A DNA stretch of 64,000 nucleotides from Giardia intestinalis (lineage: Eukaryota), in assembly GCA_000002435.2 (NCBI GenBank), contig CM018793.1. The stretch is one strand, 5' to 3'. The notes beneath the pieces are model-generated. The model was not told the origin of the DNA, searched no databases, and saw only the letters and a program-made list of their open reading frames with translations. Position numbers and translations under genes: made by a program. Below, piece by piece: positions 2,631-45,044 of this stretch. Numbering within the stretch: the stretch's first letter is position 1; each line of letters starts with the position of its first letter.

Positions 2631-2646
2631 TCTTTAAAATCACTGT
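2631..2646 (+). promoter_or_regulatory. AT-rich initiator-like element (tctttaaaatcactgt) immediately upstream of HCMP ATG
   Basis: Giardia promoters are short AT-rich elements within a few tens of bp of the ATG. This one directly abuts the start codon at 2647. Confidence 0.3.
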
Positions 2647-6012: not shown

Positions 6013-6030
6013 ATAACAAATGGAAAGTGT

Positions 6031-7701: not shown

Positions 7702-8780
7702 CCCGCTGCCCGCAAGGTGTCGGTATTGGTAAGTCGACGGCGCGGATCTGCATACGAATGTAAATTGAAACGTAAGAGACGGGCCGGTTAGTGCTTAGAA
7801 CTGTCGGCGTGTTTTGCACGCTTGTCTGGGAACGGGATCGAGAGCGACTACTATAGTCCAGATGCAAGGTATAGGCGGAGGCCTTACTGCAGTACCTGCT
7901 CCCTGTCCTCAGGCAGAGGGACTCCTCGGACCAAGCCCTCCGCCACGTGGTCGTCGCATCCTATGTGTGCGCCTCTGTGCTCCTGTACGAGGGGCTCGTC
8001 CTGGGGAGGCTGCACTATATCGCAAACGAGTGTGCGGGCGGACGGGCGTTCCTGGTGCCTCAGACGACACCCTTCAGAGAGGTGGCCCTGGACCGACGCC
8101 TCGACAGACCGAAGCATCACCCCCAAGTGTGTTGTGCAGATGGACCAGCCCACACGTCACTGAGCCAGACACACTGCACAGAATGAGCGTCGACATGATC
8201 TCGTACTGGCTGACGGACCATCCACAAGAGCGCACTGCGATCATGAGCAGAGGGATGGGCCTCTCCCCTGATACCACCGCATGGGAGTACTCCATCGGCA
8301 TCCACGAACGCGTACTATGACTCCAGGATAGAGGCGCACGGGGAGCGCACCCCCGACAGCAGGGTCGATGGTCCACGTCATGGGGAGACGAAGAGGCACC
8401 CCGAGGAACGGGGTAGACACCCGGGGTCATAGCGTATCCCATCTTCGTCATGGAGCACCAGGGCCCGGGCCACGTGGAGACCAGATCGCCGCAACAGACG
8501 CAAGACCCTGAATAGCAGGTGCCCACCAGTGCCAGACGATAGTTGACTCCGATGGGCCAGAGGAAGGGAGGAACCCTAGAGGTAACGTGAGGAGCAGCGG
8601 CTTCCGGGGGAGCTGGGGCATAGGAGTTCTCCCGCCCGGATCGAGGGCGCCTGATCTTCGGACGCTGGGGCTGGACCCCGGACGGCGAGCGGGAGCCCTG
8701 CCCAGGGCGGTGGCGTTGCAGGGAGATTTACTCGGACAGCAGCTGCAAACTAACCTTGGTAAACAGAGTAAATGAAGCAA

Positions 8781-8800
8781 CTTTAAGAAAAACTCCATTC
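8781..8800 (+). promoter_or_regulatory. AT-rich initiator-like element (ctttaagaaaaactccattc) upstream of dynein ATG
   Basis: A-rich tract directly before the first in-frame ATG at 8801. The track ORF begins at a TTG at 8756. Confidence 0.3.
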
Positions 8801-11800
8801 ATGCAAATGCATCAAGCCCGTCACCCCCCGGCAATTCTCCCTGACATAGCGTGCGTTTCTGACCAAGCGCCCATAGGTGTGTCTTCACAGGCCGCCTACA
8901 ATACTGATTCTATGAACGTCGATATTCCTACTTCATTACAGCCAGGGAAACAGCTCCACATTGCTAAGCACAACAGTGTTCTCCACGCTAATATTGCTTT
9001 AATTACAATGATGCTCCAGGAAGCTGGCGCCAGTCCGGAGTTTATTCAGGAGCTGACAAGGTTGAAGCTTCCCCACGCTCGCAGAGAGCCATTTATCGAA
9101 ACCCACATAGATGGAGCTATGACTTCTATTTCCTCTATACTTCCACGACCCAGTGTTTTCGGATATAGCCTTGAGTTCTATGATAAATACGATGACCTTC
9201 TGCAGTTGTCTAATAGGGTTCTCAGTGGAGAAATCTTACATGCTACTATGTATAAGCGCGACATCAGCTCTGATAGTTCACACATCGATTTATCCAATTA
9301 CGCCGTCTATGAGGACTACTCTTTATTTCTAAAGCACTTAGAAACCACTTATGCTATTGAAAATGTCTGTGTTATTGGTTTTAATGAGTCTGAACGGAAG
9401 TTTCTTGTGGCACCAGAAAGTATTTTTGGTGATGGTTCAAATCCGCCTTCAGGAGAGACATTAAGAGGGTCAAGCTATTTGTGCGCTCGCCTTATGCTAA
9501 AGTTTTCTACTACTGACCATCCTTTAGACAGAGATTCTATCTTTTTTAAGCGACTTTTTGAGGCTCATAGGCTCAAGGCGACCGTCGAGCGCTCTTATAT
9601 TTTGCACACGTTTATTACTGCTCTTATTAAGTCTATCCAATACATCGACTCGTTCAGCAGGGGCGAGCTTGGCAGATCGATTACGAACATTCCTCTCTTA
9701 CCAATTATTAAGGCACTAAGATTGAGCCCTGCTCTTATTGCACGTACGGGTTGCGAGGTACAAATAATTCGTGGGATATCCCCTGGCCCAGAGTTTTTTG
9801 AAGATCTTCTCATTAAGTATTTTGCCAAGAACGTAACCATTCAGCAAATCCTAAAGAATAATGTCTTTTACCCGCTTTTAGACTCTCTTCTCACAGATGC
9901 AGAGGTGGACTACAAGCGTGTGCATATCCTTAATTCACTTGGACGCTGCCGTCTTCAAAATGCAGACCTCGACAGGTTTCTTCTAAAGTATGGTATTGAT
10001 AGGCAACTAACAGACTGCGAGTACTTTTTGAAATGTTACAATCATAAGCATGTGTATCCAGTTCTTCAACATAGTACTTCTCGCGGAGGCGTCATTAATA
10101 TGCGAACTGTGCTTGTTGGAACTTTCCCAATCACTGAGCGACAGGTTCATTATAGTGAGAACCAGTCAGCCCATCAGGAGCTCGCATTTAATAGCACCTC
10201 GGATACCCAAGCAACATTAGAGTCTATTGCTTGCCATAAGGAAGCATTTATGAAGGCACGTCTTCATCTAGAAAAACATCACTACTTTTACTCTACCTCT
10301 CTACAAGGTGCCATGTTTCGTTTCAGACTAGATTGTACAGATTTTTTTGGGAGCAATCTCGTGCTGTTTCATCCAATTGTCTTAGGAAGCTCAGCTTGCG
10401 ACTTTGTACGGCATGTCCTCGCATCTGGTGCCCTTGATTCGACGCAGAAGAGCTCTTTTTACTCAAAGATTCTAGACATTTCCGTATCCGACAAGCACTG
10501 CTTACGTAAACAAGACCATGAGATTGCGGATCTCTACCAAAACTTTCTTGAGGAACAGAAGACATTTCACGAAGATCTTCAAGCTACACATTCTCAAGAA
10601 CATGTCAATTTTCGCCGCTTTGGAGATGGAATCCTGTATTCCGATGGGCGTTACGAGTACTATGTGGGAAGACAGCGTATTTTACTGCCTGAAAGTATAA
10701 CTAGTGGCGATTATGTCAGTTGTATTAGAAACATTGCTGAGCATCAGCAGGCTATTTTTCGTCAGCGGGGAGAGAATGTCCTGTCAATTTCTCTCATACA
10801 TAGCGCCACTGATATAGATACCCATATTTACCGAGGCGAGAGCTTCAGTTTCTTTAGGGGCTGGAAGAGCCAATGTCTCTTTGACTCCTTGAATTCTTTT
10901 GTCACTACTATCTATGAAACCATCGACGCAATTTTTCTGCCCCGACTAGCACAGTATCTTTTTCCATTAATGGCTCTCCAGGAAGTAGAGCGTCGTCATG
11001 CCTCCAGAATCTGTGATGAAATTTTTACACAGGCCTTAACAGAAACAATCGATCACACATATGATTTGTTTCTTGAAGCATTAAAAGATAAGCGAAGAAC
11101 ACCTGACTTGAGCTTCATGAATCCAGATGGGTTTATAAACATAAGCTTAACGCAGCAGAAGCAGCAAGGGGGGTGTGGTAACACTTTGCAGCATGCCAAC
11201 GTTCCCCCAGCAGATACCTTACCTAATACTTATATGGATTCCTCTATTGCGACTAGCAAGCTACAAGCATCAATGCCACCCATACAGCTCAGTGACCTTG
11301 AAGTTGTGGGCAAGGATATTATTATTAGGAAGGGAAATAGAGCCTTTCTAGACCCACGAAATAACACGCTGACGCGGCTAGTTAAGGCTATTTTGTTTGA
11401 AATAGAAAAGCTGGCTAACAGAGGAATGAGTTTGTTGGAATATGGCGTTTTTAACTATGAGAATTGGCCCAAAGATGCACTACTCAAGTCATCTACCCCA
11501 ACGTTCCTTTACAACTCTAAGGAGAAGATCAAAGAGCTTATTCTCAATATGATTCACCTGGGTTTGCACAGCGCCGGTACGCTCCCGAAGTATTTGCTCG
11601 AAGTTCCTGTCACTTATCCCATGGATTCGGTCCCCTTGGTTGAAGTTGTTGTTCAGTTAGCTGTCAACCCTGTATCTTCTGACTACTCCGAGTCTATAGG
11701 GCTTTATGCATGTGCTTATGAGGAGACATCTAAAGCTGTTTCCAAATGGTATCAGCAAAACCTCTATCAGTTGGACCTCCTCTTTGAGCAAGTGGCTATC

Positions 11801-14800
11801 AGCTCATTTTTAAAAGAAAGCGAGATAGAAGATCAGCAGCAAGCATCTCCTACCGAGCTCCCAGAGAAGTACACTGTCTTAGAATGCTATAAGGATAAGT
11901 ACACAACAACAGGATATGGCACTAATAGATACCTCCGCAACGATACTGCCTTCCAAGTTTTCGAAAAGAATCCAGAGCCAGACCACAGTCGTACTGATCT
12001 TTCTGTAACATCAGTGACCCAAACAACCTGTCCCAGCGACAATCTTCAGAGCACAATGGCTGAACTGTTAGAAGAGACCATTATCACTGCTAATGATTGC
12101 TTTGTATCGGTTACTGATAGCACGCTACCACACTTTACTTTGGAGCCATCAAAATCAGAATTTATGACCAAGCTTTCTGGACTATTCGACTGTTACGATA
12201 CTTTTGCTTCGCAGTTTGTGTCATTCTATGATAGCATTTCTGTAGATCCAGAAAGGAAGCGCCTAAAACCGCCAGAGTATGCATATGGGTTTAGATATGT
12301 CAAAGAGAAGCGCCACACATGTCTCGACTATACAGAATATTGCTACCAACTGGCCGAAGTTGTTCTAGAGATTTGCAACATAATTTGCTCCGCTATCTTC
12401 AATCGAACGTTGGATGCTAAATTGAAAATGTGGGCAGACATCATCTCCAATGCCATGGACCTTCCCTACTATAACCTGTATCACTCCACAAGCGAAACCA
12501 GCATTGAAGACTTTGACTATGTTCCGTTGCGACCTGTGGGCGTCACATCTTCTTCATCTAATGTTGTGGATAAGAAGGATCATCAATTTGAGGAAGTTGA
12601 CCTTGATATTATCCGAGAAATAACAAGTCCTCTTCAGATCCAAGAGCTTTCGCGAAAGGTGCGTAAAGGTCAGATAGATGTCACAGATAATTTCTTGCAT
12701 AAAATCAAAGCATACTATTATACATCAGAGTATTGGGCAACAGTGAAAAGCACCTTTGATGATAGAATGAGCATCAATGCGTTTCTGAGTCTTGTTGGAA
12801 AAAAATCTGAGGCAACCATGAAAAGAACGGAAGTGCAGGAGCTTATTTCTACCGAGGTTGTTAAAGCTATTATTTATTACCGCAGCATGCAGATACTGGT
12901 CCAAGAGCATCTTTTCCCAGATACTATACGTTACGGATTTATTTGTATCACAACGACGCCAGCTAAGCAGGCAATGGAGCACCGTATTAGTGCAATCCTA
13001 TGTGCATTAGGATCGATTGTAACTGCTCGTGCATGGACACTAATAGAGTATAGCAATAAGATTCTTCAAGCAATACAGATTCAATGTTCGTATACCCCAT
13101 CTGTACCAGTAGAGTGGTATATGCTTAGAAGGTTTGTTAAGTTCTACATAAAGCCGCTTCAGCACTTGATACATGATTTGAACAACGAGGCAGTATCGTA
13201 CTTGAATAACATTCTTACTGTGCTACCTCTAAAGGAGCTTGCCCATATTAAGCCACAGTTTGATCTCAGAATTCATTTAGAAGACCCAGAAAACTGGGCA
13301 GCGGTCATTAAGCGACTGTCTGATCCCGCAGCTGGGGTGCCAGATGAATCAAGGTATGAGTCAGACGTTATCTCCATGGCTAGGACAACACAGTTTTCAT
13401 GGATATTTAATAGGTTTATTGGGCTACGCATGCACACAGATGCGATCTATCATCCATACAAACTGGCGTCTCATCTTTATTCTAGTAGGTCGCCCTTTGG
13501 TCTGAATAAGCTAATTACACAGTCTCTTATTCCATCTACTGAGGGAATCATATCCCAGAGCAAGTACGATCTTCTTATGAACTTGGAGGCGCATCGTGAG
13601 GATCTTACCAAAAGACAGAGTGATCTCCTTGAGCGAGTCGAGGCATTCAGCAAACGAATCCCCGCTCACTTCAATTTTAATGAGGCGAGCCAAGACGTTA
13701 GCTACAAATTCTTTAAGGACGGAGAGGCCCTGCAAGCTGAGCTAGCAAATCTACAACAAGAATCATTGAACTTTATTAATGACGAAATTAGCCTAGAACT
13801 GGCTCCAGGCACATTTCCAGTTATTGATTTGCTCCAGCCCCGCATAGATATGATCCACAGATTCTGGACAATAACGTATGAGCATTGCACAATTCTTCCA
13901 GTTTGGTTTGACTGCCTTCTCTCTGACCTCGCAGCCAAGTATTCTGGAAGACTAAACGAGTTCAAAGAAACAGTTTTTAACAAATATGTCCAGGTTGCAG
14001 ATGTTTTAAGTCTCATTCAAACTGCAGCCCGCAAGGAAAAGTCTAAGACCATGCTTGCAAGCTTAGCAAATGGTGAGAAAATACTTCTAAAGGTGCAGTC
14101 CCACTTAGCGTGGTTTAAACACTACTCCCCTGTCATCGTCGCCCTTTTATCACCGGCACTAAAACGTCGCCACCTAGACCAACTGCGAACGAAAGGAATC
14201 TTTCTAAATCTAGCAGAGCATACTGTTTCCAAATTAGTAGAGCGCAAAGTCTTTCTGGATCTCTCAGAACCTAGCATTCAAGATAAGGGCTTTTCACACA
14301 GAGCAAAACTTATTCTAGAAGTCATAGAACACGCGCAAAAAGAGCACGATATTGAGCTTTCGTTTGGAAAGATTGAAGCAATCTGGAAGACAGTTTCTTT
14401 TGAATTTAAAGTTTTGTCAGGAGATCGCTACAAAAGCTACTCAGCACTTTATTCCACACACAGAGCAGATGTACACAATGTGCCGGCCGTGCATCCACTT
14501 TCGATTGCAAAGGCCAAGGTTCTGGATGAACATGGCCGCGAGCTTTGCCTGAACTTATCCACCAGTGGCTCTAATGACCGTGTACATTCCCAGTTAGACC
14601 TCGAAAAGCGCCCTTATGTGATATCAAATCTGGGATTTATCTTACAATTATATCAAGATCATTTTCTCTTGACCAACAAGCTTTTGCAATCACAACACGT
14701 CACCCCAATGCAACGCGTGATCCAACAGTTTACTGAGAAGCAGCTTATCGTCAAGGAAATCCTTCTATTGATACAGGACATTCAGGATAGCTGGCTTCGA

Positions 14801-17800: not shown

Positions 17801-20800
17801 CCTCTAGTTAATCTTATTGGCCAGGCAATCATGTACAATGCAGTGCCAGGAAAGGTTTATCGATTCTATAACATTAATCTTACGCACCAGCATAGTGGAA
17901 ACTGCTTGTTCACATTCACGAGCCTTCCGTGTATCCTTGATATGTATTATAAGGTTTTGATATCATCTCTCGTTACCTGGGCGCGACTCACAACGCAACC
18001 TGAGAGACTGACAGAACTTGTCGATATATGTACGGTCTATTCTATTTATAACTCTTTTGGGCTCGTCCTTGTGACGGTAGAGGCCAGGCAATGGTTTGAC
18101 TGGTTTGTGCGGCTGGTATTTAAGCTTGTCTCCGACCACTCGCGGTCATTAACGGAGAGCGAGGTTATTTTTATCCAGCGACATATAAAGGAGATCTTCT
18201 CGGATGACATTATTTCGACTCTTCGCTCTCTCTCCAAGTCTGACAGCTTCAAGCCGAAACTAACCAGCATAGTATGCAACTCGCTACAACTACCGAGCAC
18301 TATCAATATGCCCACAAGTACTGATGTACTTGAAGAGTACATCTTTCGAATACCTTTGCATCAACTCTTCTTTGAAATGCTTTTTGACCCCAAACAATTC
18401 TGCTTTGTGAGCTCATATGATGTCCTTTCTCTTGGCGCACCAGAGTACCTATCCAAGGTTTACTCTCTGAAGTATAATACATATGAAGTTAAGCCATCGT
18501 CTGGTGCGCTTAGATACTATATTTTGGCAACTATGCTTCTCACGTGCGGATATACACTAACAATTCTCGGTAACACGTGTTCCGGAAAATCGTCCTTTGT
18601 ACGTAATCTGTTTATGATGAATCCTTTTCACTTTAGAAATGACTTCCATATTCTCCACATTTCTTCTCTCTCGGAGCAAAATGACCCTGACGTTGCAACC
18701 GTAAACATAAAGAAGCTTGTTAAGTCTAAGCTAAACATGTACACCTCATCCTTCTATGCCCCGTATCCTGGCGCCTGCACCTACCTGATATTTGAAGACG
18801 CAGAGGTGATGCCCGCTGCCTGGTTGGAGGTTGCTCGTGAATATCAACAAAATCAATCCATCTACGATAATAGGACCTATACCATTCTAAAAGATGTGGT
18901 CTTCCTGTTCGTCACTAAGTTTTCTAATGATTTTAGAATTGATGAGCGTTACCTCAAGACCTCCTTCTTCTTACCGTTCTACGATGTCACGGCAGATGAG
19001 ATGCGGCAGATCATTTCCTTCAAGATGAAACTACCGGATCCGCGGCTCACAGAAAAGCTTGTGCTCTGCTCGTATGATCTTCTCCACGAAGTCAATGCTT
19101 ATTTAATAGGCGGCTATTCTACTACAACCGGTACCACTTGCCTCACTACTACTGCGACATTCGCTCCGTTAGTATCGTCCAGGGGAAGCTGTGATCCGGC
19201 GCCTCTTGTTACACTGGAAGTTCTTCTTAATATATCTGACCAGATTGCCAAGTTCATCAAGCAACTCCCCAAGGATATTGACCAAATGACAATAGTCAAG
19301 CTATGGATTCACGAAACGTTCCGCGAATTCACAGATAGTCGTAGCAGAGTATTCTATCGGACATTTACCAGCATTATTTACACCCTTGTACAAAAGCACT
19401 TTGATAGTGAGGTAGCCTCTCGCCTTATTGTTCCTCTTGATGATCAGCATGCAGAAATCTTCGACATCCTAATGAACAAACTTAAAGCCAAGTCGCGAAC
19501 TTTGAGCACTACAGGTTCTTTTATGCTGAACGATCCTGTGAGCTTAAAGGGCCATAATCCTATAGGCCTTCCTGCTATTCAGGAGATTTCTACATCTGAT
19601 GAAGCTGGTTCCGAAAATGAGCATGATGACTTAGAGCAAACTGACGAGAATAACTCTCACTTTGTGCCATTGAATCCAGATGCTTCAGACTTTAATACCA
19701 ATAATAGACTTCAGCTAGAAAAGCGCCATGTTTCTGCGCTGCCCATGTTTACTTATACATTCAATGCTAGTGCCATAAGGCAAGGCTATCAGGATGAAAG
19801 TATTGAGGACTTTGCGTCACGTGCCAGTCTACTGGACGAGCAACATGCACATGAGGACAGTGGTGACTTACCTGCTCTTGTCTCCCTATTAAGGTACACA
19901 GAAGTGACTATGAATGATATGAGCAAAGCCATAGAAGATGCTGATAACGACGACCATGAAGTTGAGGCTCCTGCAAATGGTAAAGGCGAAATCTTAATTC
20001 ACCACGCCAAGCGCAATAGTTGTTTCGTTACGTCTACACAGACTCTGCTTAGTGTGCAACGCATTTCTAGGATTATTGGAACACGGAGTTGTGCAATTAT
20101 TGGAATGGATGGAACTGGCCGGTCCACGTGCCTCCGTCAAGCGGCAGACAACCTCAGGATGGTTATCATCGAATTCGATCCCTTGGTATCCACGTGGACG
20201 AACTTTATTATCAATGCACTCACAAGATCAGTCTTCATGGAACGACTTGTAATCCAACTAAACCAGGAAGATCTGGATTCGCCCGAGATTCTAGAAGACC
20301 TAGAAATGTATTTTTCGACAGGGCTCGTCCATAGAATAGTTGACACAGATGAAAAGATTACCTCTCTTGCTGACTACATCAAGGAGATGCACATGGACCT
20401 TTACGGAACACTAATTGAAGCAGCTCATACGGGAGCCAATGACCTTTTAATTATGTATCGTCGGATACTTGCAGAACGCGTTCGGTTTTCTCTGATACTG
20501 AAGGAGGACTATTACCATATGCTTGCAACTGCATACCCAGTGTTCTTTAAGAATCTTGGGGTGCTAATGTTTGACTATCTTGATAACTCAACTATGGCAG
20601 TTATTGTAACGAAACTCATTCCAGATCTGAAGCCAGAGAAGTTCCTCTTGGATCACGTGATTTCAAAGCTCCACCATATAGGATACGTGGCAATGCTCGC
20701 CTCTAAGGGCAAAAATCGCGGCTGCAACTTCACTAAGCTCTTTGTTAACTTGACGCTGGCCTATTTCTCCCACCACAACAGCTACAAGGAGAAGCTAGCT

Positions 20801-23800
20801 GAGAAGCGTAACTTGTGCTCTATGTCCCTTGAACTATATAATATCATGGGCGTGATGCTGGATGTAACAAGCAAGAAAGAAGTCGGTACGAAAGAGCAAT
20901 CTAAAGCGCTGGAGCAAAAGATAGAAGAAATTGGAGCCCAGTTGAAGGAGGCTATCCTGCGCCAAGCAGAGGCCTCCCAAATGGTAGCGCAAGCTGCTGA
21001 GAAGGTGGCCTATGCTAACAAGCAGATCCACGACTGTTCTTTAAAAGTTGATAGTATTCTGAAACCCTATATGGGGTCAGTGGAGCTTTCTCATCAATAC
21101 TTGCTGAAGCTATCGGCAAAAGAGCTAGGAGCATTTAAGACCTTGACGAGGCCGAATGAAGTCACACAACTTATCTTCAAGGTCATCTATCTGCTGATGG
21201 AAAATACTATTCCAGAAGGCGCTACACTCTATTCCTATTGGATTCCGTGCAGAAAGATAGTGGCAGCGAACGATTTTATTGATCGTGCGATTAATTTAGA
21301 CACAGCTGCGCTCAAGTCGGACATAGTTGATGAGATTCTTTCTTCTATCACATCATCGTCATTCACAGCAGATGCCGCATCGAAAACAAGTGCAACAATG
21401 GGAAATCTTATGGCGTGGTGCAGCTCTGTATGCAAACTTGTCGCAGCCCAGAAGGAGGCTGCTCCTCTGCAGTCACAACTAGATCAACTTCGACAGAACG
21501 GAGCGGATGCTGTATCGTCACAGCAGGTACTAAAGTCACAGCAGGAGCTTGCTGATAAGACAGTTGTACAATTACGTGACTCTATCACACGATGCAAACT
21601 AGAAATAGAAACATTAGGCAAGACGGGCGAGATAATTAGTGAGCGCACTCGCAGAATCAATCTTTTCCTTGGTGCTTTTGCAGACTTGAAGAAGCACTGG
21701 GAGACGGTGACAGAGGATAAAGACTATATGCGCACCACTATCGGAGACAGCTTACTAATCTGTTCGCTAATTAATTACACTGGTTCAATGTCACTACTCG
21801 CAAAGCTAGACTTTTTACTTAAGTGCAAGCAAATTTTAAGTGCTAATGGAATAGCCTATACAGGAAGTGAAATCGACATCGAAAAGGGACACACATACGA
21901 TATGTCAGATCCAGAGGTAGTTGCGTCCCAAGTCCTCGGACTCAAGAGACTGCTTATTACAGAGGAAGAGGAAATGCAGCTAGTATGCCGGGGGCTCAGA
22001 GCAGATGATAATATGATAATTAGTGCTCAGACGATCGACTTTGTTGTCAATGATTTTCAATGCTATCCACTAATTCACGATCCCCACGAATTTCTGCTTC
22101 CATGGCTGAGTGCATTTTCAACCAATTCTCTTAGGGCAAAGCATCTCCTAGCCGGCTTGGCTTCTGCAGCCATTGATGGAAAAATTGGCGATCAAGAGTC
22201 CATACCGGAAACAGTGTTTCTTAACTCGAGTTCCCGAGACTTCTTCGTTAACCTAAGGGCTCATCTTGTCAAAGGCTCTGTCGTTATAGTCCAACTGGCT
22301 CCTTCGTTCGATCAGGCACGAATATCAGGGATTGCAGAGTTACTTTCTCACATGACAGATACTCATACAAAAATTGTTTTCTACAATACTCAGAAAGCCA
22401 ACGATAGTTTCCAGACTTTGTTCAGTAAAAACAAAGCCATCAGAGATTATATATACACGGTCGACATTACATCCTACGATCAACGAAACTATATATTGCT
22501 ACGCCTATCTTCTATCTGCAACCCAGAGATAGATTCGTCTATGGTGAAGCTCTGTGGGGAGTACCTATCTCTTTACACTTCTCGTGATCAAGTCGTCGCC
22601 CCTCGCTTGTACCAAATGATCAAGCATGTTCATACGTCAATGAAAGATCCAGCGATTGGCGAGCTAATACTCGACGATGTGCAGTACTTCGATAAAATGC
22701 TGAGTAGTCTAGAGCAATATCAGATTCAAAGTAGCAATCTTGCGAAACTGATGCGCAGGGTTCAAGAAAAAGAGGTCCAACGCCAGGAATACAGCATTCT
22801 GGCCAGTTGCGCTAGCCATCTTCGCAATATAACAGATCGTTTGACTGACCGCGCTCTGTTTTATCAATATAACTTTGAGAAGGTATTTGGTTTGATTGAG
22901 TCAACTGCAAATCAGTATATGGAGCAACACAGCACCCAGTTAGTACCGCCAGAGGCTGCAGAAGTGTTGATTTACGAGGCAATTTACCTGCTCATTGCAC
23001 CCAGTCTTCACACGAATGAGAAACTTCTTTTCGAGCTCAATATGGCGCTTGTAAAAGAACTTGAGGGAAAACTTTCTGGTTTGCGGCACGATATTTCATC
23101 CAATGATGTTTTGAAGATAATTATCAAAAGCGGAAGTCTCTTGGATCTGGCATTGGATGCGGGTGAAAATCTTCCGCCGAACAAATCGCTTAAAATTACC
23201 GATAGTGCCCTTCAAGCCATATCACGATTAGAGGATGGCTCTGCTTTTGGCCCATATCTGAGTGGTATCTGCAAACATATTCATGATCACCCAGATGCGT
23301 GGGACAAGGCGCTGGATACGATACGCGCTATCGGCAACACTGATCTAGAAGCATACAATCCAGACGTCATCCGGTGTTTTCCATCCTACAGCGTAACTGC
23401 AAAGACGATGCCACTTGCAATCTGGCTGGTTATAACTTATCACCTAGACAAGAGCAAATTCATTGCCGTCGCGAAGTCGTATATTATCAACGTTTTGCCA
23501 TTTGCAAAGACAAACAGGATAAAAGACCACATTATAGATCTTAGACTCAACGGTGAACGAGACTGGAAGCCGTATTTACTCCTTCAGACAGACCCTCAGA
23601 TGATTTTGGACATAGAGCATTTGGCGCGAGCTAGGAATATACATATAACAATGCTTCTTGAAAAGCAGAAGTTGATCGAGTTATGCACTACTAGGACTTG
23701 GGTCCTGCTTCCAGATATTCAGTTTCATGATGATCATGAGTTGCGCTGCCTTATCCTAATGGAGCTACCAGCCATCCATGCCAGCGGCGGCATGCATAGA

Positions 23801-25519
23801 GATTTTAAGTTATTCTTCACCCTATCAGATAGCAAGGCCAAGTTATCCAATGATCTGTTGTTGAATAGCGTTAAGATATATTGGAGTATGCCTCACAATA
23901 TCAAGCAGAACCTTCTAGCAGTTTATGAGGACCACTTCAAAGACATTTACACCAAGTTTGAAGCTGATGAGATGGTCTACGGATCTATTCTGAACAAGCT
24001 CAGCTACTGGCTCCTCTTTGCATTCTTTGTTCTTAACGAACGCCTGACTGCCTCGTCTAGAATCAATGTACTAAGGTTCTATGATTCATTTCACGAGGTA
24101 AGGAATGTGTTCCTACTTGCAATCCAGTCGCTCAGTCGTCCAAAGGTGGTCACAAAGGGTCCAGGAATCGTTCTCGGCATCCCACTTTTGCGCGCTCTAA
24201 ATGCAAACAAACACTTTCAAGAGCAAGGAGTCAAGCACTATGTTCCCACAGAGATCGAGTGCTGCTCTGTTCTTTCTTTCGAGGGTATATATTACATCTT
24301 TGGAGACCTCTACATGAAATCGGAAATACAAGACCAGTATGATGAGGCGTGCTTCGACGCATTACTACGCAGCATCATTACACCGGAACTCTTTGATTCG
24401 GATAAATACCGAACTCATCCTGTCCATGGGCGATACATGATCAATCTTCAGAGCCTCTTTAATATTTCTCAAAGCTCTAATGCAAACATACTTCGCGATA
24501 TAGAGCACTCGGTCACGTCAATCAACCTTCCAGAATTATGGTCTCTCGATGCGTCCCTCTATGATATACTTGCATACCGAGAACTCTGCCTGTTTCTCCA
24601 ATCCAGTACTTCTTCGCGGCATGCTCCGTTTACAAATACAGGCGGCTATCTGGAAAGCACTCCCCACGGACATCGACTAGTCAGCGCTGTGGTAGAGGAC
24701 CAGTGTACCCAGGTCATTAGCACTGAGGTATACCGCAGGCGACTAGAAAAGGAAGTTCAGGCTAATAGTCCGTTAATGTATATCTATTTGGCAATTGAGC
24801 GAGATGTTGCTATTTTTAATCTTCGCATTCGTGCATTCCTACCAAGCATTCTTCAGCAGTCTAAGAAGTTCAGAACAATTATCAATTACTATACCAGCAT
24901 AGCCACCAAGGGATTTACAACAGCTCTGAATCTTGCGACTTTGCAGTCCCCCGCAACGTTCTTCGATGCACTGCGACTATACTACGGTCACAACCTTAAT
25001 GTGGGCTTTAGTAAGATCATCTTGGATATTGTTCCGAAGGCCTACTATTCTCAGAGTAAGGCAGATGAAGTGCTCATGGCGGAATCTATTGCAGACATGT
25101 CCAGAATAAGACCAGCTCCGTCTCCGCGACGCTATGTGGCAATTGATGAGGAAAATGCAACGCTCAGGATGATCGGCTTAAGTGCCTCTGAAAGTGCTGT
25201 AGATGAGGCCATTAATGCATCGTTGGTTGGGGTAGACAGCACTTTTGTTATCAATGGTGTCTACTTAGGCTGCTTTGGTGAAAGCCCGAGTCCGTATCTG
25301 TCGAGCAGACTCCCAGGTGATCCTTTCTCTGCGTCCCCCCTCTGTCTTTCTGTGCGAGGACGCGCCGTCCAACCGGGTGAGACAGCCCCTCTACTTATGT
25401 TTGCACACTCGTGGCCACGCGGGGACCCTGTTTGCAGTACGGCTGATTTTACAGGAACGTTGGATGAATGTAACAAGCACCTCGGTCTATATATGCGAAA
25501 CTACCAACATGACAAGTGA
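8801..25519 (+). CDS. Dynein heavy chain, highly divergent and unusually long (5572 aa from first ATG)
   Basis: Four AAA P-loops in dynein order and spacing: AAA1 GETGKTE followed by LTACAFGLLICFEDVEKF (cf. GPAGTGKTET...GAWACFDEFNRI), AAA2 GNHLSGKTSF, AAA3 GNTCSGKSSF, AAA4 GMDGTGRSTC. Long heptad coiled coils (stalk CC1/CC2) flank a ~120-aa microtubule-binding-like segment. Conserved post-stalk motif IGDSLLICSLINYTGSMS (cf. LGDVLLASAFVSYLGPF). Single uninterrupted ORF. Confidence 0.85.
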   Translation: MQMHQARHPPAILPDIACVSDQAPIGVSSQAAYNTDSMNVDIPTSLQPGKQLHIAKHNSVLHANIALITMMLQEAGASPEFIQELTRLKLPHARREPFIETHIDGAMTSISSILPRPSVFGYSLEFYDKYDDLLQLSNRVLSGEILHATMYKRDISSDSSHIDLSNYAVYEDYSLFLKHLETTYAIENVCVIGFNESERKFLVAPESIFGDGSNPPSGETLRGSSYLCARLMLKFSTTDHPLDRDSIFFKRLFEAHRLKATVERSYILHTFITALIKSIQYIDSFSRGELGRSITNIPLLPIIKALRLSPALIARTGCEVQIIRGISPGPEFFEDLLIKYFAKNVTIQQILKNNVFYPLLDSLLTDAEVDYKRVHILNSLGRCRLQNADLDRFLLKYGIDRQLTDCEYFLKCYNHKHVYPVLQHSTSRGGVINMRTVLVGTFPITERQVHYSENQSAHQELAFNSTSDTQATLESIACHKEAFMKARLHLEKHHYFYSTSLQGAMFRFRLDCTDFFGSNLVLFHPIVLGSSACDFVRHVLASGALDSTQKSSFYSKILDISVSDKHCLRKQDHEIADLYQNFLEEQKTFHEDLQATHSQEHVNFRRFGDGILYSDGRYEYYVGRQRILLPESITSGDYVSCIRNIAEHQQAIFRQRGENVLSISLIHSATDIDTHIYRGESFSFFRGWKSQCLFDSLNSFVTTIYETIDAIFLPRLAQYLFPLMALQEVERRHASRICDEIFTQALTETIDHTYDLFLEALKDKRRTPDLSFMNPDGFINISLTQQKQQGGCGNTLQHANVPPADTLPNTYMDSSIATSKLQASMPPIQLSDLEVVGKDIIIRKGNRAFLDPRNNTLTRLVKAILFEIEKLANRGMSLLEYGVFNYENWPKDALLKSSTPTFLYNSKEKIKELILNMIHLGLHSAGTLPKYLLEVPVTYPMDSVPLVEVVVQLAVNPVSSDYSESIGLYACAYEETSKAVSKWYQQNLYQLDLLFEQVAISSFLKESEIEDQQQASPTELPEKYTVLECYKDKYTTTGYGTNRYLRNDTAFQVFEKNPEPDHSRTDLSVTSVTQTTCPSDNLQSTMAELLEETIITANDCFVSVTDSTLPHFTLEPSKSEFMTKLSGLFDCYDTFASQFVSFYDSISVDPERKRLKPPEYAYGFRYVKEKRHTCLDYTEYCYQLAEVVLEICNIICSAIFNRTLDAKLKMWADIISNAMDLPYYNLYHSTSETSIEDFDYVPLRPVGVTSSSSNVVDKKDHQFEEVDLDIIREITSPLQIQELSRKVRKGQIDVTDNFLHKIKAYYYTSEYWATVKSTFDDRMSINAFLSLVGKKSEATMKRTEVQELISTEVVKAIIYYRSMQILVQEHLFPDTIRYGFICITTTPAKQAMEHRISAILCALGSIVTARAWTLIEYSNKILQAIQIQCSYTPSVPVEWYMLRRFVKFYIKPLQHLIHDLNNEAVSYLNNILTVLPLKELAHIKPQFDLRIHLEDPENWAAVIKRLSDPAAGVPDESRYESDVISMARTTQFSWIFNRFIGLRMHTDAIYHPYKLASHLYSSRSPFGLNKLITQSLIPSTEGIISQSKYDLLMNLEAHREDLTKRQSDLLERVEAFSKRIPAHFNFNEASQDVSYKFFKDGEALQAELANLQQESLNFINDEISLELAPGTFPVIDLLQPRIDMIHRFWTITYEHCTILPVWFDCLLSDLAAKYSGRLNEFKETVFNKYVQVADVLSLIQTAARKEKSKTMLASLANGEKILLKVQSHLAWFKHYSPVIVALLSPALKRRHLDQLRTKGIFLNLAEHTVSKLVERKVFLDLSEPSIQDKGFSHRAKLILEVIEHAQKEHDIELSFGKIEAIWKTVSFEFKVLSGDRYKSYSALYSTHRADVHNVPAVHPLSIAKAKVLDEHGRELCLNLSTSGSNDRVHSQLDLEKRPYVISNLGFILQLYQDHFLLTNKLLQSQHVTPMQRVIQQFTEKQLIVKEILLLIQDIQDSWLRLYPIYVGKYTEFFGHRATEFINLTICMQTVFLGFINNCNVQGNITIAGNLNQVDKQIELGLRDGTIKFSEVPPNQLLTPLLFYYKAFLDHLNARMYSLVDTKRQGFFRFTFMNTNEIVKILSALPGSADAVLTPLLHLYSLSDYSIEKHNEQLLLTTVFSKSGETIRLADPVDVTKEVDVWLTTFDDVFRKTMRKLFYDLYVDVFVDKMEPSVAFLKYPSCTVGLFLRVEFTHQMDAIFAQTVSELDTHHMILSLLDDINHRIVFFKQQFLACSNKLLYNNILVELMYFSNIVSTICKHPLARDKRFIYYRIYKYRIVPLADDAISLLTKTLSALGDSSINSLGSTSPDQDLLLSTKVIHRDMNPSDFDVQISCLGNSMLYRFDYIPPTTRSIVTEPVDQAATFIFSAFASRSVGGYIKGETGKTEAVKHIAYCLGYKPYIINPTYTVHFSETTLHHMMLTACAFGLLICFEDVEKFTSSLLITLSRNLGQVYGILNSYTSIQTLANCASLLHDSSNHMKIALPAENPVGEVFLHPSAIFFLTTNTPLPHSFNRVVKPFKCHLTESAIYHIIRTYMDIAGLTEIESVTSQLMHIMGAIKRLFAPFFGLRHIKDIISEMLLLSQYTGRPIKKAFAEQPAASHSDNSNVTNERANTGRAEPTLEQREPIISASKLVNLAIRTVVSPLLAPAHRVPFYNMLDAEFGAIALPPITETLLDAVREIYMDPAFCQSVYRETGLVCPCSDLDIYAQSILYTNSSVYQAAQTEFITDIKSFIEVIDHNYGTVVVGNHLSGKTSFITICSQVYAKLCDYVVNLRFINFSSISYHEFFGYYSFSDWIDGIIARLVSRAELHGSNEVSWIICDGVGKMDHLGSILNGTMFLPNGEILRLPSNMKFIFEVTNLMLVPEIFSAKCGLYQLGRHDYTEGYLRKLAYSPIVTGESTLNPLEMRLHAALQESLGEIPRPRGITLYTEESLDGSEEFDSSLKPCASEIILTRLRQLVPLVNLIGQAIMYNAVPGKVYRFYNINLTHQHSGNCLFTFTSLPCILDMYYKVLISSLVTWARLTTQPERLTELVDICTVYSIYNSFGLVLVTVEARQWFDWFVRLVFKLVSDHSRSLTESEVIFIQRHIKEIFSDDIISTLRSLSKSDSFKPKLTSIVCNSLQLPSTINMPTSTDVLEEYIFRIPLHQLFFEMLFDPKQFCFVSSYDVLSLGAPEYLSKVYSLKYNTYEVKPSSGALRYYILATMLLTCGYTLTILGNTCSGKSSFVRNLFMMNPFHFRNDFHILHISSLSEQNDPDVATVNIKKLVKSKLNMYTSSFYAPYPGACTYLIFEDAEVMPAAWLEVAREYQQNQSIYDNRTYTILKDVVFLFVTKFSNDFRIDERYLKTSFFLPFYDVTADEMRQIISFKMKLPDPRLTEKLVLCSYDLLHEVNAYLIGGYSTTTGTTCLTTTATFAPLVSSRGSCDPAPLVTLEVLLNISDQIAKFIKQLPKDIDQMTIVKLWIHETFREFTDSRSRVFYRTFTSIIYTLVQKHFDSEVASRLIVPLDDQHAEIFDILMNKLKAKSRTLSTTGSFMLNDPVSLKGHNPIGLPAIQEISTSDEAGSENEHDDLEQTDENNSHFVPLNPDASDFNTNNRLQLEKRHVSALPMFTYTFNASAIRQGYQDESIEDFASRASLLDEQHAHEDSGDLPALVSLLRYTEVTMNDMSKAIEDADNDDHEVEAPANGKGEILIHHAKRNSCFVTSTQTLLSVQRISRIIGTRSCAIIGMDGTGRSTCLRQAADNLRMVIIEFDPLVSTWTNFIINALTRSVFMERLVIQLNQEDLDSPEILEDLEMYFSTGLVHRIVDTDEKITSLADYIKEMHMDLYGTLIEAAHTGANDLLIMYRRILAERVRFSLILKEDYYHMLATAYPVFFKNLGVLMFDYLDNSTMAVIVTKLIPDLKPEKFLLDHVISKLHHIGYVAMLASKGKNRGCNFTKLFVNLTLAYFSHHNSYKEKLAEKRNLCSMSLELYNIMGVMLDVTSKKEVGTKEQSKALEQKIEEIGAQLKEAILRQAEASQMVAQAAEKVAYANKQIHDCSLKVDSILKPYMGSVELSHQYLLKLSAKELGAFKTLTRPNEVTQLIFKVIYLLMENTIPEGATLYSYWIPCRKIVAANDFIDRAINLDTAALKSDIVDEILSSITSSSFTADAASKTSATMGNLMAWCSSVCKLVAAQKEAAPLQSQLDQLRQNGADAVSSQQVLKSQQELADKTVVQLRDSITRCKLEIETLGKTGEIISERTRRINLFLGAFADLKKHWETVTEDKDYMRTTIGDSLLICSLINYTGSMSLLAKLDFLLKCKQILSANGIAYTGSEIDIEKGHTYDMSDPEVVASQVLGLKRLLITEEEEMQLVCRGLRADDNMIISAQTIDFVVNDFQCYPLIHDPHEFLLPWLSAFSTNSLRAKHLLAGLASAAIDGKIGDQESIPETVFLNSSSRDFFVNLRAHLVKGSVVIVQLAPSFDQARISGIAELLSHMTDTHTKIVFYNTQKANDSFQTLFSKNKAIRDYIYTVDITSYDQRNYILLRLSSICNPEIDSSMVKLCGEYLSLYTSRDQVVAPRLYQMIKHVHTSMKDPAIGELILDDVQYFDKMLSSLEQYQIQSSNLAKLMRRVQEKEVQRQEYSILASCASHLRNITDRLTDRALFYQYNFEKVFGLIESTANQYMEQHSTQLVPPEAAEVLIYEAIYLLIAPSLHTNEKLLFELNMALVKELEGKLSGLRHDISSNDVLKIIIKSGSLLDLALDAGENLPPNKSLKITDSALQAISRLEDGSAFGPYLSGICKHIHDHPDAWDKALDTIRAIGNTDLEAYNPDVIRCFPSYSVTAKTMPLAIWLVITYHLDKSKFIAVAKSYIINVLPFAKTNRIKDHIIDLRLNGERDWKPYLLLQTDPQMILDIEHLARARNIHITMLLEKQKLIELCTTRTWVLLPDIQFHDDHELRCLILMELPAIHASGGMHRDFKLFFTLSDSKAKLSNDLLLNSVKIYWSMPHNIKQNLLAVYEDHFKDIYTKFEADEMVYGSILNKLSYWLLFAFFVLNERLTASSRINVLRFYDSFHEVRNVFLLAIQSLSRPKVVTKGPGIVLGIPLLRALNANKHFQEQGVKHYVPTEIECCSVLSFEGIYYIFGDLYMKSEIQDQYDEACFDALLRSIITPELFDSDKYRTHPVHGRYMINLQSLFNISQSSNANILRDIEHSVTSINLPELWSLDASLYDILAYRELCLFLQSSTSSRHAPFTNTGGYLESTPHGHRLVSAVVEDQCTQVISTEVYRRRLEKEVQANSPLMYIYLAIERDVAIFNLRIRAFLPSILQQSKKFRTIINYYTSIATKGFTTALNLATLQSPATFFDALRLYYGHNLNVGFSKIILDIVPKAYYSQSKADEVLMAESIADMSRIRPAPSPRRYVAIDEENATLRMIGLSASESAVDEAINASLVGVDSTFVINGVYLGCFGESPSPYLSSRLPGDPFSASPLCLSVRGRAVQPGETAPLLMFAHSWPRGDPVCSTADFTGTLDECNKHLGLYMRNYQHDK

Positions 25520-26475: not shown

Positions 26476-26612
26476 GGCTTAAAATTCGAATTTTGACCAC
26501 GCTCGATAGCCTTGACGCCCAGATCAACCGACACTGTAGAGACGTAAAAAACAGATATCGACCCCCAGAAATCACAAACCGATATCCACTATTTACATAA
26601 ACCAAAGACCGA

Positions 26613-27248: not shown

Positions 27249-27312
27249 TTTTTCCCCTACAAACTATCAACACACTCTCTCTCGTGCATTCTCTTTCGTG
27301 GTGCCTTGGCGG

Positions 27313-27384
27313 TCCGGTGTGGTATAACGGCTAGCATGACTGGTTTTCACCCAGTAGATCCGGGTTCGATTCCCGGCATCGGAG
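27313..27384 (+). tRNA. tRNA-Glu (anticodon UUC), 72 nt, no encoded CCA
   Basis: Cloverleaf: acceptor tccggtg/catcgga (one G-U), anticodon stem actgg/ccagt with loop ttTTCac, T arm ccggg-ttcgatt-cccgg (B-box GGTTCGATTCC), D-loop aacggcta. Near-identical layout to eukaryotic tRNA-Glu(UUC). Coordinates +/-1. Confidence 0.8.
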
Positions 27385-27388
27385 CTCT

Positions 27389-31492: not shown

Positions 31493-31668
31493 CCGTGTTT
31501 TTGGGTTTAGATTTAGACTAATCGGAAATTGTTGGCTTGAGTGCTTCGACGGCTTAGCAACGTAGTGGACACATCCGGTTACCAAGTGTGTGTAATCGCG
31601 CGTAATTGTGAGAACACTCAGTAGCAGAGAATCGGTGCAGACGAACAGGTTGGGCTTGAATAGCAGCG

Positions 31669-32211: not shown

Positions 32212-32241
32212 GAGTCTTTTGTGATGTAGACTAGTTGAATC

Positions 32242-45030: not shown

Positions 45031-45044
45031 ATGCGTACTTAGGT

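What the first reader, a model, noticed from the sequence alone, without database searches (positions are those of the whole stretch)
8801..25519. Oversized, highly diverged dynein heavy chain with degenerate nucleotide-binding motifs
At ~5572 aa it is ~1 kb of protein longer than typical dynein heavy chains. AAA1 lies ~2400 aa from the N-terminus, against the usual ~1900. The motor-defining AAA1 P-loop is GETGKTE rather than GPAGTGKT. Its Walker B reads FEDVEK instead of FDEFNR, so the acidic pair is swapped. AAA4 carries GTGRS, a lysine-to-arginine change. Dynein architecture is nonetheless unmistakable (stalk plus LLICSLINYTG motif). This may be a catalytically compromised, structural or regulatory dynein.
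Basis: partly seen in the sequence, partly recalled or inferred. Interest (0 to 1): 0.55.

Follow-up and report, generated by a model that had tools for sequence, protein, structure and literature searches.

The report
Giardia orphan dynein, dead main ATPase
This is a real, strongly conserved 5,572-residue Giardia gene (GL50803_14242) that keeps the whole dynein motor architecture and its microtubule-binding tip, but every catalytic element of the main ATP site is altered or deleted, so it is most likely a non-motile dynein-shaped microtubule binder.

Summary
Window 8801-25519 (+) is one uninterrupted ORF. It is identical to Giardia intestinalis WB GL50803_14242, annotated "putative dynein heavy chain". 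Profile alignment to 16 canonical dyneins is collinear from linker through AAA6.

All five AAA1 catalytic elements are changed:
- P-loop two residues short (GE--TGKT).
- Walker B DE is ED.
- Sensor-I loop PGYAGR is deleted.
- Sensor-II arginine is not fixed.
- The inferred AAA2 arginine finger is lysine.

AAA4 has K->R. AAA2 and AAA3 keep intact P-loops but lack hydrolysis residues. The stalk, the microtubule-binding domain and the AAA2 region holding the linker-contacting inserts are retained.

The gene is not decaying. It is intact and syntenic in four assemblages, with dN/dS 0.05-0.13 in every window. A 31%-identical full-length orthologue keeps the same variant motifs.

The ~1,650-residue tail matches nothing, and no dynein class is clearly closest.

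Best reading: an orphan, Giardia-lineage, non-motile or non-canonical dynein that works as a nucleotide-binding microtubule tether or regulator. It parallels animal DNAHX and DNHD1 but arose independently. The function is inferred, not shown. Interest is moderate.

The parts
8801..25519 (+). Complete single-exon CDS of the orphan dynein heavy chain (5572 aa plus stop), GL50803_14242
   Evidence: ORF list and translation. Exact match to XP_001706682. Intact, collinear orthologues in assemblages E and B and in a fourth lineage. dN/dS is 0.078 overall for A vs E and 0.05-0.13 in every 300-codon window.
8801..13750 (+). Tail, aa 1-1650, with no detectable similarity to any dynein tail or other family
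   Evidence: No Pfam hit. Local HHalign against canonical DHCs gives E 0.66. A profile search of PDB sequences finds nothing (aa 1-1200 tested). The AlphaFold model is unusable at pLDDT 30 (aa 1-1200). The tail is nevertheless under purifying selection at omega about 0.1 and is conserved in P0079.
9398..10000 (+). Best-conserved tail block, aa 200-400
   Evidence: 43-49% identity to the distant orthologue P0079, against 31-32% where measured. It ranks with the N-terminal linker as the most conserved part of the protein. A docking or assembly role is inferred, not shown.
13751..15907 (+). Linker, aa about 1651-2369
   Evidence: Pfam DHC_N2 scores 106 bits at aa 1938-2197. HHalign gives confident blocks Q1608-2241 to template 1299-1807. 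The segment is 40-48% identical to P0079 at aa 1601-1900.
15908..17095 (+). AAA1 module with a degenerate catalytic site. P-loop GE--TGKT is at nt 16058-16078. Walker B CFED is at nt 16208-16228. The sensor-I Asn is kept but the PGYAGR loop is deleted at nt 16418-16447. The sensor-II Arg is not fixed.
   Evidence: HHalign, MAFFT and HMMER alignments. The variants are invariant in four assemblages. P0079 has GP--SGKT and LED. Against PDB dyneins, AAA1 scores only 7.5-11.5 bits while the AAA2 stretch scores 36-39 bits.
17096..18487 (+). AAA2 module. The P-loop GNHLSGKT is intact at nt 17159-17182. The region that in canonical dyneins carries the H2 and PS-I inserts is retained. The residue at the inferred arginine-finger position is Lys (FSAKCG, nt 17522-17539).
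   Evidence: Alignment. At that position R is found in 16 of 16 canonical sequences and K in Giardia and P0079. Identifying this position as the finger that enters the AAA1 site is my inference from AAA+ topology and recalled yeast numbering.
18488..19405 (+). AAA3 module. The P-loop GNTCSGKS is intact at nt 18569-18592. Walker B reads LIFEDAE at nt 18785-18805. The sensor-I Asn and the GR loop are lost.
   Evidence: In P0079 AAA_7 scores 38 bits, above the Pfam cut-off.
19406..20044 (+). Acidic, poorly conserved insertion of about 210 aa between AAA3 and AAA4
   Evidence: The HHalign offset jumps from +672 to +829. D+E is 18%. Within-Giardia conservation is lowest here at 0.39.
20045..20827 (+). 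AAA4 module. The P-loop GMDGTGRS (K->R) is at nt 20102-20125. Walker B DE is replaced by NQ at nt 20252-20272.
   Evidence: The K->R change is also present in P0079 as GGEGTGRST.
20828..21727 (+). Coiled-coil stalk with the microtubule-binding domain (MTBD at about nt 21098-21475). There is a 7-residue insertion at the H2-H3 'flap' position.
   Evidence: This lies inside the longest confident HHalign block, Q4032-4440, with 319 confident columns. MTBD alignment to 16 canonical dyneins is. YWIPCRKI is invariant in Giardia and P0079. The second-best PDB stretch matches the DYNC1H1 stalk-AAA5 region.
21728..24712 (+). AAA5 (from the GDSLLICSLINYTG motif) and AAA6 modules
   Evidence: Collinear HHalign blocks Q4477-5301 to template 3620-4336, covering AAA_9, Dynein_heavy and AAA_lid_11 of the template.
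24713..25516 (+). C-terminal 268 aa, at the position of the dynein C-sequence but unassignable
   Evidence: Local HHalign gives E 0.48. PDB phmmer finds nothing. The segment is under purifying selection at omega 0.05-0.06.

Best explanation
The ORF is the functional gene for an orphan dynein heavy chain. It was found in four Giardia intestinalis lineages and in one more distant, unidentified Giardia-like organism.

It folds as a complete dynein: linker, six-AAA ring, stalk and microtubule-binding domain. Its main ATPase site, AAA1, can no longer run the canonical hydrolysis cycle:
- The P-loop is two residues too short.
- The Walker B acidic pair is inverted.
- The phosphate-release (sensor-I) loop is deleted.
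- The sensor-II arginine is not fixed.
- The residue at the inferred trans-acting arginine-finger position is lysine.

AAA2 and AAA3 probably still bind nucleotide but lack the hydrolysis residues. AAA4 is degenerate.

The most likely mode of action is therefore a non-motile (or at best very slow, non-canonical) dynein. It would bind microtubules through its preserved MTBD and attach through its unique 1,650-residue tail to a Giardia-specific partner or structure. In that role it would be a tether, a scaffold, or a regulatory or assembly partner of other dyneins.

Shown here: gene reality, architecture, motif states and selective constraint. Inferred: loss of motility, microtubule binding, nucleotide binding at AAA2 and AAA3, and the cellular role.
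For: Gene reality:
- Uninterrupted 5572-codon ORF identical to GL50803_14242.
- Intact, collinear, syntenic orthologues at 91, 82 and 76% identity.
- dN/dS of 0.03-0.08 pairwise and 0.05-0.13 in every 300-codon window.
- Peptides seen once by mass spectrometry (PMC8552679 supplement).

Architecture:
- HHalign to 16 canonical DHCs gives E 2.6e-58 and is collinear over linker, AAA1-6 and stalk.
- A Foldseek search with the AAA1-AAA2 model hits dynein motor structures at E about 1e-20.

AAA1 decay:
- Residues that are 16/16 invariant in canonical dyneins are changed or deleted. These are D and E of Walker B, PGYAGR, the sensor-II HYDFGLR motif and the AAA2 R.
- Among 134 AAA1 P-loops from the exhaustive search, only this family and one unrelated decayed paralogue have a shortened loop.
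- Schmidt and Carter 2016 (PMC4879348) state that AAA1 has the complete catalytic set in all dynein isoforms and is the site strictly required for motility.

The variants are selected, not drifting:
- They are identical in four assemblages.
- They are retained in the 31%-identical orthologue P0079 as G-x-x-GKT, ED, finger K and AAA4 GR[ST].

Other support:
- MTBD and stalk are preserved.
- Precedent exists: non-motile DNAHX and AAA1-degenerate DNHD1 (PMC11785096).
- P0081, a DNAH6-class paralogue, shows the same set of losses independently.
Against: - There are no biochemical data.
- GKT, an acidic pair and (in G. intestinalis) the sensor-I Asn remain. AAA1L is the most invariant 100-residue window among the assemblages at 0.88. 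The site is therefore clearly still used for something and might bind or slowly hydrolyse nucleotide in a non-canonical way.
- The mechanical elements are conserved: the linker, the AAA2 region that holds the linker-contacting inserts, and the stalk. This is also what one would expect of a protein that still changes conformation.
- The AlphaFold model is only moderately confident (pLDDT 62) and poor around the P-loop.
- The cellular role is pure inference. The only localisation hint is a source label, 'Axonemal / Dynein heavy chain-cytoplasmic', with 2 spectral counts in one replicate.
- My identification of the AAA2 'SRCG' arginine as the finger rests on AAA+ topology and recalled yeast numbering, not on a tool result.
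Confidence: 0.65

Rival explanations
1. It is still a force-producing dynein. Either the shortened P-loop with the ED pair forms a non-canonical but active AAA1 site, or the cycle is driven from another site such as AAA3.
For: - GKT, an acidic pair and the sensor-I Asn persist, and AAA1L is the most invariant window in Giardia.
- The AAA2 and AAA3 P-loops are intact in both lineages.
- The linker, the AAA2 insert-bearing region, the stalk and the MTBD are all conserved.
Against: - All five AAA1 catalytic elements are altered or lost together.
- In P0079 the sensor-I Asn and the sensor-II segment are also gone.
- AAA3 lacks the Walker B Glu position, the sensor-I Asn and the GR loop, and the AAA4 finger position is not Arg.
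- As far as I know, no P-loop NTPase with G-x-x-GK[ST] is active. This rests on general knowledge, not on a test made here.
- The same combination of losses appears in an unrelated decayed paralogue and resembles non-motile DNAHX and DNHD1.
Confidence: 0.2
2. It is the extremely diverged Giardia orthologue of a canonical class, and it still does that class's job. Candidates are cytoplasmic dynein-1, as one source label ('Dynein heavy chain-cytoplasmic') implies, or a two-headed inner-arm dynein.
For: - The source label in the PMC8552679 supplement.
- The best class-profile scores are to IAD1 (567) and DHC1 (535).
- The stalk-AAA5 stretch matches DYNC1H1 best in PDB.
- Giardia otherwise lacks DHC1 (PMC5100056).
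Against: - The scores to all classes are 6-10 times lower than between the most distant canonical classes compared, and IAD1 and DHC1 are about equal, so no class stands out.
- The tail has no DHC_N1 or other dynein-tail similarity.
- Dynactin is absent from diplomonads (PMC3583065).
- The NJ tree keeps it outside the DHC1+DHC2 clade, but distances are saturated.
- Ancestry from some class is certain in principle. Retained canonical function does not fit the AAA1 state.
Confidence: 0.12
3. It is a decaying 'ghost' gene, a pseudogene or an annotation or assembly artefact.
For: - Only weak, partial Pfam hits.
- It was first annotated as hypothetical.
- It is absent from the Wickstead and Gull 2007 DHC list.
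Against: - 5,572 codons without a stop.
- It is intact and syntenic in four lineages with dS up to saturation and dN/dS 0.03-0.08, uniform along the gene.
- A full-length orthologue exists at 31% identity.
- Peptides were detected.
Confidence: 0.01

Closest known systems
DNAHX (non-motile dynein heavy chain of sea-urchin sperm; Chai et al. 2025, PMC11785096)
   Same: It is a complete dynein heavy chain whose AAA1 motifs (Walker A, sensor-I loop, sensor-II Arg->Lys) are non-canonical. It carries multiple insertions along the motor and is interpreted as non-motile.
   Different: - DNAHX derives from outer-arm alpha and is animal-specific ('absent in protists').
- DNAHX keeps a Walker B, has a normal-length P-loop with T->V, and its stalk-MTBD insertions are reported to disrupt microtubule binding.
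- The Giardia protein has a 2-residue P-loop deletion, an ED Walker B, a deleted sensor-I loop, an apparently intact MTBD and an unrelated tail.
- Its lowest class score is to outer-arm beta. No outer-arm alpha/gamma-class profile was available.
- The resemblance is functional, not orthology.
DNHD1 (Kollmar class 11, metazoan 'orphan' DHC)
   Same: It is a highly aberrant DHC with a poorly conserved AAA1 lacking catalytic Walker B residues and with disordered insertions. It is nonetheless biologically required.
   Different: Class 11 is metazoan-specific (PMC5100056). No DNHD1 sequence was available here, so no direct comparison was made.
Orphan diplomonad dynein noted by Kollmar 2016 (PMC5100056)
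   Same: It is a Giardia/diplomonad DHC that fits none of the classes. It is the single orphan whose N-terminal tail could not be aligned to any of the nine ancient classes. This matches the unalignable tail found here.
   Different: The identity of that sequence with GL50803_14242 could not be checked, because no supplement is held. That paper explicitly did not analyse the ATP sites.
Canonical dynein heavy chains (cytoplasmic 1 and 2, outer- and inner-arm classes)
   Same: The domain order is the same: linker, AAA1-AAA6, and stalk/MTBD between AAA4 and AAA5. AAA2 is nucleotide-binding but non-catalytic.
   Different: - The AAA1 catalytic set is incomplete.
- AAA1 is less conserved than AAA2, the reverse of the canonical pattern.
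- The protein is about 900-1,200 aa longer, through a longer unrelated tail and insertions.
- Profile scores are 6-10 times lower than between canonical classes.

Membership tests
Dynein heavy chain superfamily | Linker domain (DHC_N2) preceding the ring | tested here: met
   Pfam DHC_N2 scores 106 bits against a cut-off of 31.9. HHalign gives confident blocks over the template linker.
Dynein heavy chain superfamily | Six concatenated AAA+ modules in canonical order in one polypeptide | tested here: met
   The HHalign alignment is collinear, Q60-5304 to template 31-4341, E 2.6e-58, with confident blocks in every module. A Foldseek search with the AAA1-AAA2 model hits dynein motors at E about 1e-20.
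Dynein heavy chain superfamily | Antiparallel coiled-coil stalk with an MTBD inserted between AAA4 and AAA5 | tested here: met
   This lies inside the longest confident block, Q4032-4440. The MTBD aligns to 16 canonical MTBDs.
Dynein heavy chain superfamily (motile isoforms) | AAA1 with the complete catalytic set: GxxxxGKT, hhhhDE, sensor-I Asn and loop, sensor-II Arg, AAA2 Arg finger | tested here: not met
   The states found are GE--TGKT, CFED, PGYAGR deleted, sensor-II R/K variable and deleted in P0079, and Lys at the inferred finger position. The requirement is stated in PMC4879348.
Dynein heavy chain superfamily | [quoted passage not shown] | tested here: not met
   There is no Pfam hit in aa 1-1900. 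Local HHalign gives E 0.66. The PDB profile search is empty.
Dynein heavy chain superfamily | C-terminal 'C sequence' domain after AAA6 | tested here: inconclusive
   268 residues follow the AAA6 lid. The only match is collinear but non-significant at E 0.48, and there is no PDB hit.
Cytoplasmic dynein-1 (DHC1) | Groups with DHC1 sequences, and has a DHC1 tail with dimerisation and IC/LIC sites | tested here: not met
   The class-profile score of 535 is no better than IAD1 at 567, against more than 3,300 between classes. The NJ tree excludes it from the DHC1+DHC2 clade at 100% bootstrap, but distances are saturated. The tail is unrelated.
Cytoplasmic dynein-1 (DHC1) | Co-occurrence with dynactin | not testable with these tools
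   The literature reports that diplomonads lack dynactin and DHC1 (PMC3583065; PMC5100056).
DNAHX | Descent from outer-arm alpha, with insertions in the stalk-MTBD and the AAA4 small domain, restricted to animals | tested here: not met
   The outer-arm beta profile gives the weakest match at 171, and only a local one. No outer-arm alpha/gamma-class profile was available. The MTBD is intact apart from a 7-residue flap-site insertion. The organism is Giardia.
DNHD1 / class 11 | Orthology to metazoan DNHD1 | not tested
   No DNHD1 sequence could be obtained. The class is reported as metazoan-specific.

The most novel reading that the evidence does not exclude
The protein is still a working mechano-enzyme. 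Its conformational cycle would be driven either by a non-canonical, two-residue-shortened AAA1 P-loop with an inverted Walker B pair, or by another site such as AAA3. That would make it a dynein that moves or switches without the canonical AAA1 chemistry. The deep conservation of G-x-x-GKT, of ED, of the linker and of the AAA2 region that holds the linker-contacting inserts does not exclude this.
Probability: 0.08. Interest if true: 0.85.

Novelty: new variant of a known kind. Interest (0 to 1): 0.45.

Why it matters
AAA1 is described as the one site that is complete in all dynein isoforms and strictly required for motility. Exceptions (DNAHX, DNHD1) were recognised only recently, and only in animals.

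This gene would be an independent protist example. It retains an apparently competent microtubule-binding domain and carries a novel 1,650-residue tail. It occurs in an organism that lacks cytoplasmic dynein-1 and dynactin and builds unusual, hyperstable microtubule organelles.

- It gives a directly testable candidate for a dynein-derived tether or regulator in Giardia.
- It provides a natural experiment on which dynein elements stay constrained once AAA1 catalysis is gone.
- The recurring set of losses, also seen in an unrelated DNAH6-class paralogue, could serve as a sequence signature for finding non-motile dyneins in other genomes. The set is a short P-loop, sensor-I loop deletion and R->K at the inferred arginine-finger position.

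Tried and rejected
1. AlphaFold of the tail (aa 1-1200, 5-sequence alignment) gave pLDDT 30 and no usable model. No fold search was attempted.
2. Tail and C-terminus were compared with canonical dyneins by local HHalign (E 0.66 and 0.48) and with PDB sequences (no hits). Nothing came of it.
3. An NJ tree on 3,065 columns was tried. Distances from the orphan to canonical DHCs were 3.3 or more, and 22 of 29 sat at the 4.0 cap. The orphan joined the other long branch (DNAH7_Cylas, 71%), which I treat as long-branch attraction, not evidence.
4. The word-indexed protein search cannot see relatives at 31% identity. It missed P0079 from the Giardia side and the Giardia proteins from the P0079 side. 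Its silence on G. muris or Spironucleus is therefore uninformative.
5. P0081 has a short P-loop and was considered as a wider family member. It was rejected because it is a DNAH6-class paralogue (937 bits to DNAH6 against 81 bits to Giardia). The shared losses are convergent.
6. P0229 (Aduncisulcus, a fornicate) was considered as an orthologue. It was rejected because it has the canonical GPAGTGKT and NPGYAGR.
7. Full-text searches for GL50803_14242 found nothing, and '14242' alone returned noise. The Wickstead and Gull supplement does not list the gene.
8. The pseudogene and artefact idea was rejected on selection and synteny.
9. The organism behind P0079 (Logan SRR31929897, GC 44.5%) could not be identified.
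Full report
What is there. Window 8756-25519 (+) is a single open reading frame. From the first ATG at 8801 it encodes 5572 residues without interruption. The protein is letter-for-letter XP_001706682 / GL50803_14242 of Giardia intestinalis WB. It was first deposited as 'hypothetical protein' and is now 'putative dynein heavy chain'. The window is therefore Giardia nuclear DNA, and the gene model is already public.

Pfam recognises only fragments. DHC_N2 scores 106 bits. The first 135 positions of AAA_6 score 41 bits, starting at aa 2381. AAA_7 falls below threshold. A phmmer search of PDB sequences hits dyneins of every class at E 1e-21 or weaker.

Is it really a full dynein? I aligned the four Giardia orthologues as a profile against 16 canonical heavy chains covering cytoplasmic 1, IFT-like, DNAH1, 2, 6 and 9 types. 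HHalign gave one collinear alignment with E 2.6e-58. Confident blocks lie in the linker, in each of AAA1-AAA6 and in the stalk. The block spanning the stalk, MTBD and AAA5 entry is the longest, with 319 confident columns. An AlphaFold model of aa 2340-2960 reached pLDDT 62 and retrieves dynein motor structures at E about 1e-20.

The extra length is spread along the protein, relative to a 4349-residue fungal DHC1:
- The offset is +310 to +480 by AAA1.
- It rises to about +660 by AAA3.
- An acidic, poorly conserved insertion of about 210 residues lies between AAA3 and AAA4. After it, the offset stays at about +800 to +970.
- 268 C-terminal residues cannot be assigned.

The nucleotide sites. At AAA1, residues that are invariant in all 16 canonical sequences are changed as follows:
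- The P-loop GPAGTGKT becomes GE--TGKT, a two-residue deletion, so GxxxxGK[ST] is not satisfied.
- Walker B CFDEFNR becomes CFEDVEK.
- The sensor-I loop PGYAGR is deleted, although the Asn remains. Chai et al. describe this loop as the phosphate 'backdoor'.
- The sensor-II HYDFGLR motif is reduced to Y-TG[R/K].
- The invariant Arg of the AAA2 'SRCG' motif is Lys. I infer from AAA+ topology and recalled yeast numbering that this is the finger that enters the AAA1 site.

The other sites look like this:
- AAA2 keeps GNHLSGKT. Like canonical AAA2, it has no catalytic Glu.
- AAA3 keeps GNTCSGKS but reads FEDAE at Walker B. It lacks the sensor-I Asn and the GR loop, and the AAA4 finger position is Asn.
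- AAA4 is GMDGTGRS with NQ in place of DE.

No site has a full hydrolytic set. Two sites probably still bind nucleotide. Against PDB dyneins the AAA1 stretch scores 7.5-11.5 bits and the AAA2 stretch 36-39 bits. This reverses the usual pattern in which AAA1 is the best-conserved module.

Not decay. Orthologues in assemblage E (P15, 91%), assemblage B (82%) and a fourth lineage (76%) are full-length, almost indel-free and syntenic. PCNA, UPRTase and a RING protein lie downstream in all of them. Nei-Gojobori dN/dS is 0.078 for A vs E at dS 0.56. It stays between 0.05 and 0.13 in every 300-codon window, including the tail and the C-terminus. Every variant motif is identical in all four lineages. 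The gene also appears, weakly, in a proteomic table: 2 counts in one replicate, labelled 'Dynein heavy chain-cytoplasmic' (PMC8552679 supplement).

Relatives. I ran an exhaustive HMMER search of 1.84 billion representatives with aa 1938-2935. It found 502 proteins at E <= 0.001, and only two were specific:
- P0079 has 5306 aa, E 8e-112 and 31% identity. It comes from a 25-kb single-exon contig of an unidentified organism, Logan SRR31929897.
- P0080 is a 149-residue fragment at 64% identity.

Everything else starts at E 1e-22. P0079 aligns over the whole length. The tail block at aa 200-400 (43-49%) and the N-terminal linker (40-48%) are the best-conserved parts. P0079 shares the derived states:
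- GP--SGKT at the AAA1 P-loop.
- LED at Walker B.
- Lys at the inferred finger position.
- GxxGxGRS at AAA4.
- Intact AAA2 and AAA3 P-loops.
- The MTBD signature YWIPCRKI.

P0079 has additionally lost the sensor-I Asn and the sensor-II segment. These are therefore family characters kept across deep divergence.

Class affinity. Profile-profile scores of the orphan family against class profiles were:

| Class profile | Score |
|---|---|
| IAD1 | 567 |
| DHC1 | 535 |
| DNAH1 | 466 |
| DNAH7/12 | 419 |
| DNAH6 | 373 |
| DHC2 | 356 |
| OAD-beta (local match only) | 171 |

Four canonical class pairs scored 3,379-6,297 against each other. An NJ tree is saturated and shows long-branch attraction. No class is clearly closest.

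The tail (aa 1-1650) has no Pfam hit and no significant HHalign match. Over aa 1-1200 there is also no PDB match and no usable AlphaFold model. This fits Kollmar's 2016 remark that one orphan diplomonad dynein is the only one whose tail cannot be aligned to any ancient class. That paper did not examine the ATP sites. Wickstead and Gull 2007 did not include this gene.

How it most likely works. Schmidt and Carter state that AAA1 alone is strictly required for motility and carries the complete catalytic set in all isoforms. Here all five elements are compromised together. The same combination arose independently in P0081, a DNAH6-class paralogue from a metagenome: a short P-loop, the sensor-I loop deleted, sensor-II R->H and finger R->K. 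It also resembles the experimentally non-motile DNAHX and the AAA1-degenerate DNHD1.

I therefore consider it most likely (about 0.65) that this is a non-motile dynein. It would bind microtubules through a preserved MTBD and be anchored through its conserved, novel tail. It would act as a tether, a scaffold, or a regulatory or assembly partner, with nucleotide at AAA2 and AAA3 serving a structural or switching role.

Against a purely static role, several features remain strongly conserved: GKT, the acidic pair, AAA1L as a whole, the linker, and the AAA2 region that in canonical dyneins holds the linker-contacting inserts. A non-canonical active cycle therefore cannot be excluded (about 0.2 for some residual motor activity). 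Loss of activity, microtubule binding and cellular role are all inferences. None was measured.

Novelty and verdict. The gene and its dynein nature are annotated, and its orphan status was probably noted in 2016. The concept of non-motile heavy chains exists. I could not find any description of the systematic loss of the AAA1 catalytic apparatus under strong purifying selection, together with an intact MTBD and a unique tail, in a protist lineage. The DNAHX paper states that its family is absent from protists. I rate this a new variant of a known kind, of moderate interest (0.45).

Noticed in passing
window 38572-60411: A giant perfect inverted duplication. The arms 38572-44900 and 54083-60411 are 6,329 nt and 100% complementary, and 44472-45512 / 47207-48247 are 1,041 nt and 100% complementary. 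The only visible difference between the arms is the copy number of a 216-bp repeat. It may be a real inverted gene pair or an assembly artefact.
   Followed up: partly
window 47819-54511 and 44472-44900: There are 31 perfectly identical tandem copies of a 216-bp (72-codon) unit, with GC 0.63 and AT skew -0.37. They lie inside ORF 47689-54570 (-) of 2293 aa, and equally long ORFs run on the opposite strand. The other arm holds only 2 copies, in ORF 44413-45030 (+). The protein was not characterised.
   Followed up: partly
window 38901-44390 and 54600-60080: Two stretches of about 5.5 kb have no ORF of 100 aa or more, which is unusual in what I know to be a gene-dense genome. Most of each lies inside the two arms of the inverted duplication.
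   Followed up: no
window 2647-7701: Two adjacent plus-strand ORFs (1121 and 556 aa) have EGF-like cysteine-rich repeats and lie directly upstream of the dynein gene.
   Followed up: no
window 25576-34920: The downstream neighbours are PCNA (-), uracil phosphoribosyltransferase (-), a 1398-aa RING-finger protein (-), an unassigned 316-aa ORF (-) and an ankyrin-repeat protein kinase (+). PCNA, UPRTase and the RING protein follow in the same order in all three orthologous loci. The kinase is also visible in the assemblage E locus, the only one long enough.
   Followed up: yes
P0081 (ENA metagenome protein, 2020-aa fragment), aa 1480-1900: This is a DNAH6-class dynein paralogue whose AAA1 has decayed independently. 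It has P-loop TGSEGKSE, Walker B CFAEFDR, the PGYAGR loop deleted, sensor-II R->H and AAA2 finger R->K. These are the same losses as in the Giardia protein.
   Followed up: partly
L004 (Logan SRR31929897 contig, 25,161 nt), gene 2475-18395: This is the only distant full-length orthologue (P0079, 5306 aa, 31% identity). It sits on an intron-free contig of GC 44.5% from an unidentified organism. It is not next to PCNA or UPRTase, so synteny is not shared.
   Followed up: partly
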